Origin: Octopus sinensis
Taxonomy: Eukaryota
Length of the DNA: 64,000 nucleotides
Reading direction: 5' to 3'
Assembly (NCBI RefSeq): GCF_006345805.1
Contig: NC_043014.1
Coordinates: forward strand, 44,826,001-44,890,000
Below the pieces are notes generated by a model. The model saw only the letters and a list, made by a program, of their open reading frames with translations, made no database searches and had not been told where the DNA came from. The translations under genes and the position numbers were made by a program. This document shows positions 9,118 to 64,000 of the stretch, one piece after another. Each line of letters begins with the position of its first letter. Position 1 is the first letter of the stretch.

Positions 9118-10433
9118 GCAGACTGTATGATGCATATGTATGAACAGCCATGCTACATGGCAGTGAAACATGGGCCGTGACTGCTGAGGACATGCGTAAG
9201 CTTGCGAGAAATGAAGCTAGTATGCTCCGTTGGATGTGTAATGTCAGTGTTCATAGTCGACAGAGTGTAAGTACCTTGAGAGAAAAGTTGGACCTAAGAG
9301 GAATCAGATGTTGTGTGCAAGAGAGACGATTGCGCTGGTATGGTCATGTGGTGAGAATGGATGAAGATAGGTGTGTGAAAAAGTGCCACACCCTGGCAGT
9401 TGAGGGGACCTGTGGAAGAGGTAGACCCAGGAAAACCTGGGTCGAGGTGGTGAAGCACGACCTTCGAACTCTAGGTCTCACCAAGGAAATGACCAGAGAC
9501 CGAGACCTATGGAAGTATGCTGTGCGTGAGAAGACCCGGCAAGACCAGTGAGAACAATCAAAATCAAATCATATATCAGAAAGCAGGGGTTAAGTGACCC
9601 ATCCGGTCGTGTCCGCTGTCAGCCTCATCTGGCACCCGTGCCGGTGATACGCAAAAGCATCATTCGCTCGTGGCCGTTTGCCAGCTCTGCCTGGCCCCGT
9701 GTCGGTGGCACGTAAAAGCACCATCCGTTCATGTTCGTTGCCAGCCTCGCCTGGCCCCGTGCCGGTGACACGTAAAAGCACCGTCCGTTCGTGGCCGTTT
9801 GCCAGCTCTGTCTGGCCCCGTGTCGGTGGCACGTAAAAGCACCATCCGTTCGTGGCCGTTTGCCAGCTCTGTCTGGCCCCGTGTCGGTGGCACGTAAAAG
9901 CACCATCCGTTCGTGTCCGTTGCCAGCCTTGTCTGGCCCCCGTGCCGGTGACACGTAAAAGCACCGTCCGCTCGTGGCCGTTTGCCAGCTCTGTCTGGCA
10001 ACCGTGTCGGTGGCACGTGAAAGCACCATCCGTTCGCGTCCGTTGCCAGCCTCGGCTGGCCCCCGTGCCGGTGACACGTAAAAGCACCGTCCGTTCGTGG
10101 CCGTTTGCCAGCTCTGTCTGGCCCCGTGTCAGTGGCACGTAAAAGCACCATCCGTTCGTGTCCGTTGCCAGCATCGCCTGGCCCGGTGACACGTAAAAGC
10201 ACCATCCATTCGTGGCCGTTCGCCAGCTCTGTCTGGCACCTGTGCAGGTGGCACGTAAAAAACACTCACTACACTCGCGGAGTGGTTGGCGTTAGGAAGG
10301 GCATCCAGCCGTAGAAACACTGCCAGATCTGACTGGGCCTGACGAAGCCTTCCAGCTTCACAGATCCCAGTTGACCCGTCCAACCCATGCTAGCATGGAA
10401 AGCGGACGCTAAACGATGATGATGATGATGATG
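9118..10433 (+). mobile_element. 5'-truncated RTE-clade LINE: ORF C-terminus (9150-9551), tandem-repeat 3' UTR and (GAT)n tail
   Basis: HGSETW, RRLRWYGHV and RGRPRKTW motifs of the RTE ORF C-terminus. Inserted inside a family B SINE. Confidence 0.88.
9597..10256 (+). repeat. ~11 x 60-62 bp tandem repeat in the RTE 3' UTR
   Basis: Unit aaaagcaccatccgttcgtggccgtttgccagctctgtctggccccgtgtcggtggcacgt, recurring at about 9654, 9714, 9774, 9835, 9896, 9957, 10019, 10080, 10141 and 10195. Confidence 0.95.
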
Positions 10434-22797: not shown

Positions 22798-23163
22798 ACG
22801 GAACAGCCTGCTCGTAAAATTAACGTGCAAGTGGCTGAGCACTCCACAGACACGTGTACCCTTAACGTAGTTCTCGGGGGAGATTCAGCGCGACACAGTG
22901 TGACAAGGCTGGCCCCTTTAAAATATAGGTACAACAGAAACAGGAAGAAAGAATGAGAGATAGTTGTGGTGAAAGAGTACAGCAGGGTTCGCCACCACCT
23001 CCTGCCAGAGCCTCGTGGAGCTTTAGGTGTTTTCGCTCAATAAACACTCACAACACCCAGTCTGGGAATTGAAACCGCGATCCTAAGACCGCGAGTCCGC
23101 TACCTTAACCACTGGGCCATTGCGCCTCCACTAAATAATAATGGCAGGAACATAATTATCAAG

Positions 23164-23481
23164 TGTCCTTCTTGTGGCCCTCAAGCATCCTTCCTGTGGC
23201 CCTCAAGCATCCTTCTTGTGGCCCTCAAACGTCCTTCCTGTGGCCCTCAAGCATCCTTCCTGTGGCCCTCAAGCATCCTTCTTGTGGCCCTCAAACGTCC
23301 TTCCAGTGGCCCTCAAACGTCCTTCCCGTGGCCCTCAAGCATCCTTCAAGTGGCCCTCAAGCATCCCTCAAGCATCCTTCTTGTGGCCCTCAAACGTCCT
23401 TCAAGCAGCCCTGAAGCATCCTTCCAGTGGCCCTCAGGAATCCTTCAAGCGGCCCTCAAGCATCCTGCAAGTGGCCCTCAA
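23164..23481. repeat. ~22-bp minisatellite (~14 units)
   Basis: Unit ccttc(c/t)tgtggccctcaa(gcat/acgt), degenerating rightwards. Confidence 0.92.
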
Positions 23482-32976: not shown

Positions 32977-34726
32977 ACTTGTTTCCTTTTAATTTTTCCT
33001 TTTCTTTTTCTTTTCAAAGATTTCCCAGTAGAAAACATGGAAATCTTTCAGGTGAAATGAGAGTACACCTATTGCAGTAATTATTTTAGAAAAATATATT
33101 AATTACTCTGCTGAACTGCACCGAGCTCTAAACATAGTTCATTGTCTGCTTTATTCTTAATAAGCAATTACTATGATATATACATATAGTGAAAGTTTAC
33201 GAAAAAAAACAAAAGACGAAGACAGGTGGTGTACAAAACAAACAGATGTATTAGTATAGCACTCAGGAATAGAAAAAGTCTTTTATGTTTCGAGCCTATG
33301 CTCTTCTACAGAAAGGTACACAGGAAAAACAAGGAGAGAAAAAAAATGTGTGTAGTGGCTAAAGATCTATCATGGTGTCTGACTCGGACAAAATGATATA
33401 TATATATGTTTATACCGCGTGTGTACCGTTGGCGATTTTTTTCCTCTGTCTTCCCTTCTCCTATGTTTCCGACGAAGAGCTCCGCTCGAAACACTAAGCC
33501 CTCCTTCTTTCCTGAGCATCCAATAATACTATAATTGTTCCATGTCCTCGCGTTGTTGTGTTTTTTTGTGCTTTCTTGTTTGGATTAACTATATATATAT
33601 ATATATACACAAACACATATGTCACTGATCTTTCCAGTAAATTTGCGTCATTACTTGAAAAGTCAAAATATATGAACAAAATTAATGGGATGTGATTGAC
33701 TCAGAAGGCAAATGGGTAGTAAGAAAAACAAATTGGTTAAGTTTTGACAGAGCCAGACAACACTGCTAATATAAAGATAACAAAATAAAGACAAATAATA
33801 CAAAGTAATAATTAATTATTGTTAATATACACATCAAGGGCTTTCAGTTAAAGTCAGTACACAATTAATAAAATTCCATTCATGCGTTGTTTTTCCTATC
33901 AATTATTGATATCCAGAAAATACATCTTTTCTACTCTCAGCACAAAGCCGGACATTTTGGGGGAGGGGGCCAGTCGATTGGAACGACTCCAGTACGCAAC
34001 TGGTACTTAATTTGGGGTTTTTATGCCCGGGTCAAGCCCTTTAGTTTAACCCTTAATTTATCGACACCGAAAGGATGAAAGCCAGAAAAATACATCTGAA
34101 CATTTGACATCATTAAATTTCCCTTTAAAGTATAGTGTAAACAAGGTCTTGCTCGTATCTCCTTGTCTATCCCAAAACTTTCAAATCTTAATAGTTTTCT
34201 TTTTAATTCTAATTAAATAAAAGATAATGGTATTATACGTAGTCTTTGAATGACTCATAGTATTTTGGTAGATTCCCTCCAAAAGAAAACAAATTATGCA
34301 AGACAGACTGTTAAAACACTAAACGAGTGCAAGTAAATGCCAAAATGAAAAGGCTTTTCTAGTTTCCAAATAAATGGGTACTACTAGCGAACAGTGGTCC
34401 CGGTGCGCGCCCTCGCGCACCTGTGCTAACTAGTCGTAAGTAGTCGATCCTACGACTTGTTAACCCTAAACCTAATTTTTTAACCCTAACCCTAACCTTA
34501 GTTTGTTTATAAAAATAACTTATTTACTTAGTTTAAAAAATAATTTACTTTGCGTTTTATTTACTTTGTTCGAAAAATATCTAATTTCCTTAAATCCTTA
34601 AAAATGTTTTAGCCCGAAGGCCGCGGCCATGCTGGGGCACAACCGCTGTATAAAAAAAATTATATACATTGTTTTAAAAAATATTTTATTTACTTAGTTT
34701 AAAAAAATTATTTACTTTGCGTTTTA

Positions 34727-55992: not shown

Positions 55993-57650
55993 TAAACAGA
56001 TCCAAGCTGACAGTAGAAGGGTAATTGGGTAAGAGAGAATGAGAGAGAGAGGGGGGATGGGGAGATGTTGGAAGGGGTACATAACTGTCATTGTTTGGTT
56101 GCAAGGTCAATTAATAAGGTCAACTCACTCTTACTCTTTCACTCATTATCTGTCTGTGAAGTTTTCTGTCTCTCTCACCCTCTATCCGTCTGTCTGTTTG
56201 TCAATCAGCCCATCTATGTTATTGTGTATCATGAGAGTTAGAACTGTTTTGTTTTTGTTCCTTCTCGAGCCATGCCTGGCTCATAAGGGCCGGTTTCCCG
56301 GTTTCTTGGCATATAGGCTCCCCACCTGGATGGGACACCGGTCCATCGCAGGTGAGCTGCAAGATGCAGGAGGAAAGAGTGAGAGAAAGTCGTGGCGAAA
56401 GAATCAGCAGAAGTTCGCCGTTACCTTCTGCCAGAGTTGCGTGGAGCTTAGGTGTTTCACTCATAAACACACACATCGCCTGGTCTGAGATTCAAACCCG
56501 CGATCCCTTGACCGTGAGTCCACTTGAGCCATGCCTGGCTCATAAGGGCTGGTTTCCTTGGCATATAGGTTCCCCACCTGAACGGGACGCCAGTCCGTCA
56601 CAGGTGAGCTGCAAGATGAAGGAGGAAAGAGTGAGAGAAAGTTGTGGCGAAAGAATCAGCAGAAATTTCGCCATTACTTTCTGCCGGAGCCGCGTGGAGC
56701 TTAGGTTGTTTCACTCATAAACACACACATCGCCCGGTCTGAGATTCGAACTCGCAATCCCTCGACCATGAGTCCGCTGCTCTAACCACTAGGCCATGTG
56801 CCTCCACAGTTAGAACTGTGACAGTAAGCAATTGAGAATCTGTGTTCAAGTATTCACTTCTAAAACACAGTACAGGAACGAAAATTATCTGTCTGTCTGT
56901 CTATCAATCTGTCTGTGTGTCCGTCAATTCATCTTTCTACATTTAAATGTATTGTAATAACCATGGCAAGGAACAATTGACAAGCTTTGTTCAAGTGATC
57001 ACTTCTAAAACAAAATAATGGAATGAAGATTACCAATTTCCACTTTAATAACAAAATTCATTTAGTACAAGTTCTAGTGTATGAGTGAAGGCAAGTAGCC
57101 CATTGTTTAGAGGCGTCTAGCTCATGATCACAAGGTTGTGGATTCAAGTCTTTGACAAGGTAGAGAATGACATCCTTGAGCAAGACACTTCATTCCATGT
57201 AGCTCCAGTCTACTTAGCTGCAATGAGTACCAGTCCTATACTAGTGCAGACACTGCCCTTTCTCTCTCGCACTCTCCCTTTCTAGCTGTCATGTCCAGGA
57301 TGTTTCACAGAAATAAAAGTGAGGTGATTGATAGGGTATCTAAAGCTTCCCATGAGCACATAGGCACTTAAAGCAATTAGCAAAAGCCTGGTACATGTCA
57401 CCAAACCATATTCACTTGTGAAAAATGGCTGGCTGAGTATGTAATACGTAGGTGTGAGTGTGTGCATGTATTTTCAAGTAAGTATGTATTTCCACACACA
57501 CATGTGGACGTATTTAAGGCTGTGTGTGTGTATAACAATCCTACAGATTCATCAAAACCCAAAAAGTGACATAGGCTTGGTGTGTATATTAAAAATATAA
57601 ATATATATATATATATATATAATATATATATATATGTGTATATATATATG

Positions 57651-57879: not shown

Positions 57880-57977
57880 ACATATATATATATACACATA
57901 TATATATATTATTTATATTTAATATACACAAGCAAGCCTATGTCACTTTTTGGGTTTTGATGAATCTATAGGATTGT

Positions 57978-58028
<51 letters not shown>

Positions 58029-58032
<4 letters not shown>

Positions 58033-59452
58033 GAAATGTTAAAATAACTAAGTCTCTCTAAAAGAGAACAGCGGCAGCGTTCCCGAAAATAATAGTTATC
58101 GCCATACTAATATGGCATTCTTATAAAAATAAGAAAAAAGCTGTCCGCTTATTAGCTCCATGAGGCCATCGCCTTAAGTTAGCTATTTGATACACAACTG
58201 TATCCATATAACCTTCGAACAAGGGAGGTCAGTCGCTCCACACTACTTGACCGGCAGCTACAGACGCGTTTCGGGGTATTGCCCTTTTTCAATGCAGCGT
58301 AGCCAGCCAGTAGGTGTCGCTTCCGACAATCTCTGTTCGATGGTTTATTTACCTAGTTTCGGTGGAATACATCCACTTGTTTTCAATAATAGAAATGTTA
58401 AAATAACTAAGTCTCTCTAAAGAGAGAACAGCGGCAGCGTTCCCGGAAAATAATAGTTATCGCCATACTAATATGGCATTCTTATAAAAATAAGAAAAAA
58501 GCTGTCCGCTTATTAGCTCCATGAGGCCATCGCCTTAAGTTAGCTATTTGATACACAAACTGTATCCATATAACCTTCGAACAAGGTTATAACCCTTGTT
58601 CGAAGGTTATATGGATACAGTTTGTGTATCAAATAGCTAACTTAAGGCGATGGCCTCATGGAGCTAATAAGCGACAGCTTTTTTCTTATTTTTATAAGAA
58701 TGCCATATTAGTATGGCGATAACTATTATTTTCCGGGAACGCTGCCGCTGTTCTCTTTTAGAGAGACTTAGTTATTTTAACATTTCTATTATTGAAAACA
58801 AGTGGATGTATTCCACCGAAACTAGGTAAATAAAACCATCGAACAGAGATTGTCGGAAGCGACACCTACTGGCTGGCTACGCTGCATTGAAAAGGGGCAA
58901 TACCCCGAAACGCGTCTGTAGCTGCCGGTCAAGTAGTGTGGAGCGACTGACCTCCCTTGTTCGAAGGTTATATGGATACAGTTTGTGTATCAAATAGCTA
59001 ACTTAAGGCGATGGCCTCATGGAGCTAATAAGCGGACAGCTTTTTTTCTTATTTTATAAGAATGCCATATTAGTATGGCGATAACTATTATTTTCCGGGA
59101 ACGCTGCCGCTGTTCTCTTTAGAGAGACTTAGTTATTTTAACATTTCTATTATTGAAAACAAGTGGATGTATTCCACCGAAACTAGGTAAATAAAACCAT
59201 CGAACAGAGATTGTCGGAAGCGACACCTACTGGCTGGCTACGCTGCATTGAAAAGGGGCAATACCCCGAAACGCGTCTGTAGCTGCCGGTCAAGTAGTGT
59301 GGAGCGACTGACCTCCCTTGTTCGAAGGTTATATGGATACAGTTTGTGTATCAAATAGCTAACTTAAGGCGATGGCCTCATGGAGCTATAAGGCGGACAG
59401 CTTTTTTCTTATTTTTATAAGAATGAAGACGATGCCATATATAGTATGGCGA

Positions 59453-59458
<6 letters not shown>
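58029..59458. mobile_element. Penelope-pLTR/retrozyme-like ~360-bp tandem array with central inversion
   Basis: About 1.5 units on one strand, a palindromic junction at ~58589, then about 2.4 units on the other strand. Embedded in (TA)n, with a hammerhead motif in each full unit. Confidence 0.75.
58881..58922 (+). ncRNA. Minimal type-I hammerhead ribozyme, U3-A8 core variant
   Basis: gctgca|TTGAAAA|gggg-caata-cccc|GAAA|c-gc-GTC|tgtagc. Also at 59242-59283(+) and 58257-58298(-). Confidence 0.7.
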
Positions 59459-59511
<53 letters not shown>

Positions 59512-61522: not shown

Positions 61523-62150
61523 TTAACGTCCGCTTTCCATGCTAGCATGGGTTGGACGGTTCAACTGGGGTCTGGGGAGCCCGAAAGCTGCACCAGTCCA
61601 GTCAGATCTGGCAGTGTTTCTACAGCTGGATGCCCTTCCTAACGCCAACCACTCCGAGAGTGTAGTGGGTGATTTTATGTGCCACCGACACAGGTGCCAG
61701 ACGAGGCTGACAAACGGCCACGCTCGGATGGTGTTTTTTATGTGCCACCGACACAGGTGCCAGACGAGGCTGGCAGACGGCCACGCTCGGATGGTGTTTT
61801 TTATGTGCCACCGACACAGGTGCCAGACGAGGCTGGCAGACGGCCATGCTCGGATGGTGTTTTTATGTGCCACCGACACAGGTGCCAGACGAGGCTGGCA
61901 GACGGCCACGCTCGGATGGTGTTTTTATGTGCCACCGACACAGGTGCCAGATGAGGCTGGCAAACGGCCACGATCGGATGGTGCTTGTTACGTGCCCACA
62001 GCACGGAGGCCAGTCGATGCGGTACTGGCTACGGCCACGTTCGGATGGTTTTCTTATGTGCCACGTGCCACCGGCACTGGTACCACAAAGATACAAATTC
62101 CATTGATGTTCATCTATTTTGATTTGTTTTGATTTGATTTTCACTTGCCT
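61492..62150 (-). mobile_element. RTE 3'-tail element (family C) with ~5 x 62-bp units
   Basis: Same tail as 10257-10433. Shorter copies at about 919-1045, 1338-1558, 5278-5523, 7737-7943, 8155-8400, 14595-14993, 20176-20620, 21826-21982, 24073-24417, 26607-27014, 28341-28682, 29132-29478, 39950-40324, 46721-47111, 52381-52777 and 62280-62446. Confidence 0.88.
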
Positions 62151-63867: not shown

Positions 63868-64000
63868 ATATAAATATATATATATAGGGAGAGTTTACGA
63901 AAAAAACAAAAGACGAAGACAGGTGGTGTACAAAACAAACAGATGTATTAGTATAACGCTCAGGAATAGAAAAAGTATTTTACGTTTCGAGCCTATGCTC

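What the first reader, a model, noticed from the sequence alone, without database searches (positions are those of the whole stretch)
58029..59458. Retrozyme/Penelope-like 360-bp array with a covarying U3-A8 hammerhead ribozyme
Seen: a non-coding ~360-bp unit repeated head-to-tail, flipped at a palindromic junction (aacaagg-ttataa-cccttgtt, ~58589) and embedded in (TA)n. Each full unit has gctgca TTGAAAA gggg caata cccc GAAA cgcGTC tgtagc, which gives stem I, stem II, a palindromic minimal stem III (acgcgt) and a GUC site. Established: tandem or inverted pseudo-LTRs with minimal type-I hammerheads that fold as dimers are hallmarks of Penelope-like elements and non-LTR retrozymes, and C3-G8 is a Watson-Crick pair in the active core. 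Inference: UUGAAAA is a compensatory U3-A8 core that CUGANGA searches would miss. Self-cleavage of a multimeric transcript would release ~360-nt monomers or circles, making this a candidate mobile ribozyme RNA family.
Basis: partly seen in the sequence, partly recalled or inferred. Interest (0 to 1): 0.88.

Follow-up and report, generated by a model that had tools for sequence, protein, structure and literature searches.

The report
Hammerhead retrozyme targeted by a LINE
A 361-base repeat carrying a predicted self-cutting hammerhead RNA occurs over a thousand times in this animal genome, was likely spread by the enzymes of a Penelope-type jumping gene, and a second jumping gene (a LINE) sits almost only at one fixed spot just before its ribozyme.

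Summary
Observation confirmed: a 361-bp unit with a type I hammerhead (U3-A8 core), tandem and inverted, in (TA)n; 1,077 exact core copies genome-wide. The U3-A8 core is not new: it is published for Penelope-like elements (PLEs). The unit fits a non-LTR retrozyme. Three sister families keep the core and covary the helices. (1) Insertions carry a PLE signature: of 37 two-armed loci, 32 pair a short end with a 60-bp-longer end and none pairs like with like. A young Hydra-type PLE here shows the same pairing in 17 of 18 inverted pairs and is the likely helper, without pLTR homology. (2) A 5.3-kb L1/Tx1-type LINE lies at one site 9 nt before the ribozyme: 38 of 39 3' ends, 16-17-bp duplications; an ORF1-only element does so in sister families (17 of 17). 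My searches found this target in no paper, but this scan noted Tx1 LINEs in PLE hammerhead tails in two other genomes. Cleavage, circles and helper are untested.

The parts
57981..58029 (.). (TA)n target, left flank
58029..58586 (-). Inverted arm, ~1.5 units; its 3' end (58029) is the long end (unit position ~200)
58029..58088 (-). ~60-bp tail: the segment by which the long end exceeds the short end (approximate)
58257..58298 (-). Hammerhead copy with A at position 10.1 (weakened stem II)
58308..58324 (-). Empty LINE target site (17 bp duplicated at occupied loci)
   Evidence: sequence compared
58587..58592 (.). Inversion junction filler between the two arms
58593..59459 (+). Forward arm, ~2.4 units of 361 bp, ending at the short end (unit position ~140) after a small local rearrangement
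58855..58871 (+). Empty LINE target site, 9 nt before hammerhead stem I
58881..58922 (+). Type I hammerhead 1 (U3-A8, palindromic helix III); predicted cut after 58916
58917..59277 (+). Predicted 361-nt monomer between two cuts
59216..59232 (+). Empty LINE target site, second unit
59242..59283 (+). Type I hammerhead 2; predicted cut after 59277
59457..59500 (.). (TA)n target, right flank

Best explanation
This is a young, protein-free 361-bp repeat family (a non-LTR retrozyme) whose tandem transcript is predicted to cut itself with a dimeric hammerhead, which is likely copied into (TA)n by the reverse transcriptase and endonuclease of a Penelope-like element, probably the Hydra-type one in this genome, and which carries a LINE at one fixed site at dozens of loci, likely by site-specific insertion. 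Steps. (1) Shown: dispersed tandem/inverted copies, 2.4% apart between loci. (2) Predicted: two neighbouring units pair their palindromic helix III and cut after GUC, giving 361-nt RNAs; ligation to circles is by analogy with published retrozymes only. (3) Inferred: a PLE endonuclease opens (TA)n, and the two target ends prime reverse transcription at two fixed RNA sites about 60 nt apart; each cDNA runs one or more units and the two join head to head at a microhomology, giving inverted arms with one short and one long end. (4) Shown: a 5.35-kb APE-RT LINE and a related ORF1-only element lie at one site just 5' of the hammerhead with 16-17-bp duplications; inferred: the LINE endonuclease picks this site.
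For: Copy number 1,077 vs control 0. The dimeric hammerhead is the minimum-energy fold of two units, z -6.9, 0 of 100 shuffles as stable. Across 15 hand-picked copies of four families 98.6% of cells pair and 26 cells change on both sides vs 8.7 shuffled; helix III stays palindromic in four to five spellings. Ends: 32 short+long, 0 like-like, 5 with one atypical end among 37 two-armed clusters; 74 of 85 such ends run into (TA)3 vs 193 of 2,650 background positions. Tandem, inverted, tailed, microsatellite-biased insertions are described PLE traits (PMC8557442). Opposite arms differ by 0.79% vs 2.4% between loci; either arm can be longer (15 vs 17), which fits twin priming better than fold-back. 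Helper candidate: 717-aa ORF with RWK, DKT, CxCX5C, CxxC, CxH, the Hydra motifs; copies 94-97% identical to the query piece; short+long ends in 10 of 10 fetched inverted pairs and 7 of 8 others. LINE: 38 of 39 3' ends and 28 of 30 examined 5' ends (of 37) abut the site; LINE-duplication-LINE tandems at 2 loci; LINE copies 0.33% apart at informative sites vs 1.9% for their flanks; ORF1-only element 17 of 17.
Against: No cleavage, expression or circle is shown. In PMC4209133 a metazoan minimal PLE hammerhead cut only weakly, and in the 2026 preprint only 1 of 9 Xenopus dimers cut. The Hydra pLTR has no clear homology to the unit (8 of 300 shuffles score as high), its hammerhead lies 32 nt before the short end vs 175 nt here, and its tail is 74 vs 62 nt; only three PLE families were examined, so another helper is possible. 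Long arrays show variants with period 2-4, which a pure monomer circle would not give. LINE and flank trees are partly congruent (Mantel r 0.37, p 0.0002; 9 label changes vs 12.4 shuffled, minimum 4), so some LINE copies probably moved together with the unit. Two LINE 5' ends belong to 92-93% identical sister copies outside the unit. The covariation set was chosen for intact motifs and holds only four related families.
Confidence: 0.75

Rival explanations
1. Same element and helper class, but it moves as a linear multimeric transcript; the hammerhead only trims or is largely silent and no circle is needed.
For: Period-2, -3 and -4 variant patterns in arrays L034, L056, L083; weak or absent cleavage of many published PLE/retrozyme dimers.
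Against: Units and both arms of a locus are closer to each other (0.8-1.0%) than to other loci (2.4%), and both private variants of the window are shared by both arms; the circular monomer folds at z -6.3. Circular dimers or later duplication could also give periodicity.
Confidence: 0.3
2. The LINE association comes from one ancestral chimera (LINE inside a unit) that was then copied as cargo by the PLE machinery, not from site-specific insertion.
For: Nearly all LINE copies are full length; partial tree congruence and a supported clade of 4 copies with one flank type; a 29-kb array on C3 in which all five units carry a LINE.
Against: LINEs 4 substitutions apart in ~4.6 kb sit in different flank subfamilies; the duplicated allele follows the local target; LINE-duplication-LINE tandems; a different, ORF1-only element and a 70%-identical LINE use the matching site in families C and D; the four C3 copies compared differ by 9-14 substitutions.
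Confidence: 0.1
3. A satellite of solo PLE terminal repeats amplified at the DNA level, with a vestigial hammerhead.
For: Arrays up to 22 units (L083); the 2026 preprint proposes local amplification from a pLTR.
Against: 100 core hits fall in 52 separate loci on two contigs, each with fixed ends in (TA)n; no PLE ORF is joined to the unit in frame with a pLTR role in 52 loci; core and helices are kept across families 15-25% or more apart.
Confidence: 0.05
4. The inversion is a long-read fold-back artefact.
For: Homopolymer indels show read-type errors in the assembly (table 4).
Against: 37 of 55 clusters are two-armed, arms end at different fixed sites and have different flanks; an autonomous PLE shows the same.
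Confidence: 0.02

Closest known systems
Metazoan non-LTR retrozymes (Cervera & de la Pena 2020, PMC7229834; e.g. mussel 350-390-bp repeats)
   Same: Short tandem non-coding unit, type I hammerhead in each unit, weak helix III predicted to work as a dimer, self-paired predicted circle.
   Different: U3-A8 core; inverted arms, paired short/long ends and (TA)n targeting are not described for retrozymes in the parts I read; no RNA data here.
PLE pLTR hammerheads, including the U3-A8 variant of S. mansoni Cercyon (PMC4209133)
   Same: U3-A8 core, palindromic helix III, pairs on opposite strands.
   Different: Here the motif is in a multi-unit ORF-less array with 6-bp stem I and 4-bp stem II and no bulge at the base of stem II.
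Non-autonomous PLEs such as MRC1/Chlamys; Hydra, Naiad and Penelope insertion structure (PMC8557442)
   Same: Head-to-tail copies, inverted 5'-truncated copy, tail at one end, microsatellite target.
   Different: Published non-autonomous Chlamys share 3' sequence with their autonomous partner; none found here. Tail ~60 bp rather than 30-40, and paired strictly one-to-one.
Target-specific Tx1-clade LINEs: Tx1L in Tx1D, Tx1-Mar in Mariner-N4, Keno in U2 (PMC4494074)
   Same: APE-RT LINE at one site of a multicopy repeat, tandem insertions sandwiching a ~16-bp duplication, a non-autonomous companion with the same target.
   Different: The target is a hammerhead retroelement, 9 nt from the ribozyme; Tx1 membership was not tested by a tree.

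Membership tests
Type I hammerhead ribozyme | Core 3-9, GAAA, NUH site, three helices | tested here: met
   U3-A8 replaces C3-G8, a natural pair
Type I hammerhead ribozyme | Helices conserved by compensatory change | tested here: met
   (15 chosen copies, four related families)
Type I hammerhead ribozyme | Self-cleavage | not testable with these tools
   needs in vitro transcription
Non-LTR retrozyme | 150-450-bp tandem repeat, hammerhead in consecutive units, no ORF | tested here: met
Non-LTR retrozyme | Highly self-paired predicted circle; dimer fold for a weak helix III | tested here: met
Non-LTR retrozyme | Expressed as linear and circular monomer RNA | not testable with these tools
   only assembled contigs of runs not on record as RNA
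PLE (insertion signature) | Partial tandems, inverted truncated copy, tail at one end, microsatellite bias | tested here: met
   against PMC8557442
PLE (autonomous) | RT + GIY-YIG ORF between pLTRs | tested here: not met
   no such ORF inside any of 52 loci; adjacent PLE pieces are separate insertions
Non-autonomous derivative of a given PLE | Terminal homology to an autonomous family | tested here: inconclusive
   none with three families examined; other families not surveyed
Hydra clade (helper candidate) | RWK, DKT, CxCX5C linker, CxxC and CxH, (TA)n target, hammerhead | tested here: met
Hydra clade (helper candidate) | Placement in RT/EN phylogeny | not tested
   no named reference proteins in hand
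Tx1 clade (the LINE) | ORF1 zinc knuckle, ORF2 APE-RT-zf, closest to L1 among solved proteins | tested here: met
Tx1 clade (the LINE) | Target specificity (over 20% of flanks, criterion of PMC4494074) | tested here: met
   38 of 39 and 28 of 30
Tx1 clade (the LINE) | RT groups with Tx1 rather than L1 | not tested
   homologues were unnamed

The most novel reading that the evidence does not exclude
A four-tier chain of parasites built around one ribozyme: a Hydra PLE moves the retrozyme, a LINE lineage has tracked the retrozyme families through sequence change by inserting a fixed distance before their hammerheads, and an ORF1-only element rides the LINE. The LINE uses the host hammerheads as R2 uses its own ribozyme in rDNA: cuts one unit upstream and ~60 nt downstream release a co-transcript with target sequence on both ends, which explains why almost all copies are full length with exact 5' junctions.
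Probability: 0.3. Interest if true: 0.8.

Novelty: new variant of a known kind. Interest (0 to 1): 0.58.

Why it matters
Which autonomous element moves animal retrozymes is left open in print (LINEs or PLEs, PMC7229834; mechanisms 'remain to be elucidated', 2026 preprint). Here the insertion scars themselves match one PLE family in the same genome and not a second one, which names a helper to test. The strict pairing of a short with a long end, in both the retrozyme and the PLE, is a sharp constraint on the unsolved PLE integration mechanism. The LINE adds a site-specific retrotransposon whose target is a ribozyme element, with young copies and an intact ORF2 suited to endonuclease assays.

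Tried and rejected
Rfam: no hammerhead hit. U3-A8 as novelty: rejected. Helper candidates rejected: an AT-rich PLE abutting family B is one chance junction spread by duplication, with no pLTR homology and (TAA)n flanks; a very abundant PLE with a CX4CxxC linker (17,236 candidates) targets (TA)n but showed one 3' end in all loci where an end was found among 40, sharing only a 13-nt word in opposite orientation. Fold-back priming: rejected by arm lengths. Expression: no RNA holder listed (20 of 23 rows hold the stretch, 10 studies, six coded organisms). Contigs of runs guessed to be RNA cover the unit, and in two studies it assembles as one 392-nt contig (361 + 31) that closes on itself (X8; X11); this cannot tell a circle from a tandem, or RNA from DNA, and is used neither for nor against. 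LINE classification by name failed. Literature: no paper held 'retrozyme'+'Tx1'+'insertion'+'LINE'; searches listed no paper whose title or abstract start reports a LINE targeting a hammerhead repeat; Repbase and subscription journals were not searchable, supplements were not read and those of the preprint are closed, so these families may already be catalogued. Lunse et al. 2017 on dimeric PLE hammerheads is recalled only (not held).

Full report
Observation. The window lies in a 2.72-Gb animal genome (that it is a cephalopod is my recalled guess from its repeats, from no call). At 58029-59459 a 361-bp unit forms an inverted arm of ~1.5 units and a forward arm of ~2.4 units between (TA)n tracts. 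A relaxed type I hammerhead descriptor hits only 58881-58922 and 59242-59283 in 64 kb; the minus-strand copy has A at position 10.1. Rfam misses all three. No ORF of 130 aa or more lies in the element.

Family. The 30-nt core occurs 1,077 times exactly, control 0; 1,371 times with positions 3, 7, 8 and one stem I base freed, and 99 of the first 100 listed are U3-A8. For an unbiased sample I fetched the 52 loci holding the first 100 of the 1,077 hits; a 22-unit array (L083) was added by choice and left out of end counts and distances. Copies differ by 2.4% between loci, 1.0% within an arm and 0.79% between arms.

The ribozyme. The U3-A8 pair is published: Cervera and de la Pena found it in S. 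mansoni PLE hammerheads (PMC4209133, parts 1-2 of 4 read) and Perreault et al. call it a natural covariation active in vitro (PMC3088659, passages). The structure is well supported. Two units fold, unconstrained, into the dimeric hammerhead with a 6-bp intermolecular-type helix III (z -6.9); the circular monomer folds at -117.9 vs -84.2 +/- 5.3 kcal/mol for 60 shuffles. Related families B (~75% identical to A), C (82-85%) and D (no BLAST match to A apart from a short word, ~330 bp) keep the core and change helix III only among palindromes (ACGCGU, ACUAGU, ACAUGU, ACGU, ACUAUAGU, ACUGCAGU; one C variant is an imperfect 7-mer). On 15 copies chosen for intact motifs, 98.6% of cells pair and 26 change on both sides vs 8.7 in shuffles, while the count of pairs with such change (5 vs 4.2) is not above shuffles; these are four related lineages, not 15 events. 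Family D has U3.G8 in 22 of 25 matches, a possible step between C3-G8 and U3-A8. Cleavage is untested, and published relatives often cut poorly.

Insertion signature. In the sample 37 of 55 clusters are two-armed. Arms end at unit position ~140 (short) or ~200 (long): 32 clusters pair short with long, none pairs like with like (binomial p 2e-10), and 5 have one atypical end. 74 of 85 such ends run into (TA)3, against 193 of 2,650 background positions; two non-TA sites (L069, L082) show 9-12-bp duplications. The short arm is the longer one in 15 and the long arm in 17, so neither is a fold-back copy of the other. Tandem, inverted, tailed insertions in microsatellites are PLE traits not seen in LINE insertion (PMC8557442, passages). 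A read chimera would not give unequal fixed ends and different flanks. Variant periodicity of 2-4 in three long arrays argues that templates are sometimes multimeric or that blocks duplicated later.

Helper. No PLE ORF is built into any of the 52 loci. Three PLE families were examined. Two were rejected. The third (23,993 first-look candidates, 150 scored) has a 717-aa ORF with the Hydra motifs, its own hammerhead variant, (TA)n targets and two ends 74 nt apart. Short and long ends pair in 10 of 10 inverted pairs that I picked from the hit list and fetched, and in 7 of 8 further pairs (one long-long). Its pLTR is not clearly homologous to the unit. I put the Hydra family at about even odds as helper and a PLE of some kind at about 0.9. 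In print the helper is only suggested (PMC7229834, parts 2-4 of 6; preprint 10.64898/2026.07.22.740005, parts 1-3 of 5, by co-occurrence and pLTR homology in Xenopus).

The LINE. Three of the 52 loci hold a 5,348-bp LINE (ORF1 with a zinc knuckle; 1,140-aa ORF2 with endonuclease, RT and zf-RVT; best solved match human L1 ORF2p). Searching by LINE-internal words only: 39 3' ends, 38 followed by unit position 263/264; 34 of 39 show the matching upstream half by pattern and one more by BLAST, two are cut by assembly gaps, one is 5'-truncated with a target deletion and one is a 69-bp stub. Of 37 5' ends 30 were examined and 28 follow the site; the other two are 92-93% identical sister copies elsewhere. 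The duplication is 16-17 bp and ends 9 nt before stem I; the window's three sites are empty. For 28 of 34 full-length copies (6 dropped for lacking unit sequence on both sides in my filter) LINEs are 0.33% apart at informative sites and flanks 1.9% (raw 0.8% and 3.0%), with partial congruence: several independent insertions, plus some co-movement. An ORF1-only element of 1.7-2.1 kb with the same last bases occupies the matching site of family C (14 of 17 3' ends: 8 running into the hammerhead, 6 into another copy) and family D (3 of 17); two of the 17 lie in duplicated loci. A LINE 70% identical over ORF1 follows a D-type site. Tx1-clade LINEs are known to target other transposons and snRNA genes (PMC4494074, passages; PMC8869645, passages). 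I found no paper on a hammerhead repeat as target; a 2026 octopus repeat annotation does not contain the words hammerhead or ribozyme (PMC13282606, passages). This scan's unchecked notes report Tx1 LINEs in PLE hammerhead tails in two other genomes, seen after I had found this one.

Verdict. The element is a new member of a known kind and its headline feature is known, so the first score of 0.88 is too high. The paired-end signature that points to a helper and the site-specific LINE lineage make it a new variant worth bench work: interest 0.58.

Noticed in passing
L380/L386 (G000:C15:29010181) and L385/L387 (G000:C6502:254604): Two sister LINE copies (92-93% identical) start with a 17-mer that I recall as resembling the 5' end of U1 snRNA (too short for Rfam); L387 lies 370 bp from a full U2 gene. 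May mark a recent switch of target.
   Followed up: partly
L195-L197, L230 (G000:C3:72500871-72529901): A 29-kb array in which five consecutive units each carry a full LINE, four on one arm and one on the inverted arm, with short and long ends; the four LINEs compared are not identical.
   Followed up: partly
L248-L272: Family D: a ~330-bp retrozyme-like unit with a U3.G8 core, an 8-nt helix III palindrome in two spellings and two ends 41 nt apart; 4 of 25 matches carry the ORF1-only element. L341 holds a further relative ~68% identical.
   Followed up: partly
L343:2296-4446 and L313-L355: Young Hydra-type PLE; its hammerhead has a U4C core, a long bulged stem II and a GUU site.
   Followed up: partly
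L304:1667-4693, L068:6840-6900, L077: Very abundant (TA)n-targeting PLE families with minimal hammerheads bearing other core changes (A6U in L068; U4C in L077).
   Followed up: no
L034, L056, L083: Variant patterns of period 2, 3 and about 4 along tandem arrays.
   Followed up: partly
L389:223: The one LINE 3' end not followed by the target runs into unidentified sequence.
   Followed up: no
window 57483-57579 and 57933-58029: An older inverted pair (74% complementary) flanking the long (TA)n tract left of the element.
   Followed up: no
window 9599-10260, 61673-62064, 56267-56775, 23159-23481: Tandem arrays of 61-63, 252 and 22 bp; an RTE-like RT fragment at 9144-9551; PLE terminal repeats near 33196-33597 and 63894-64000.
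   Followed up: no
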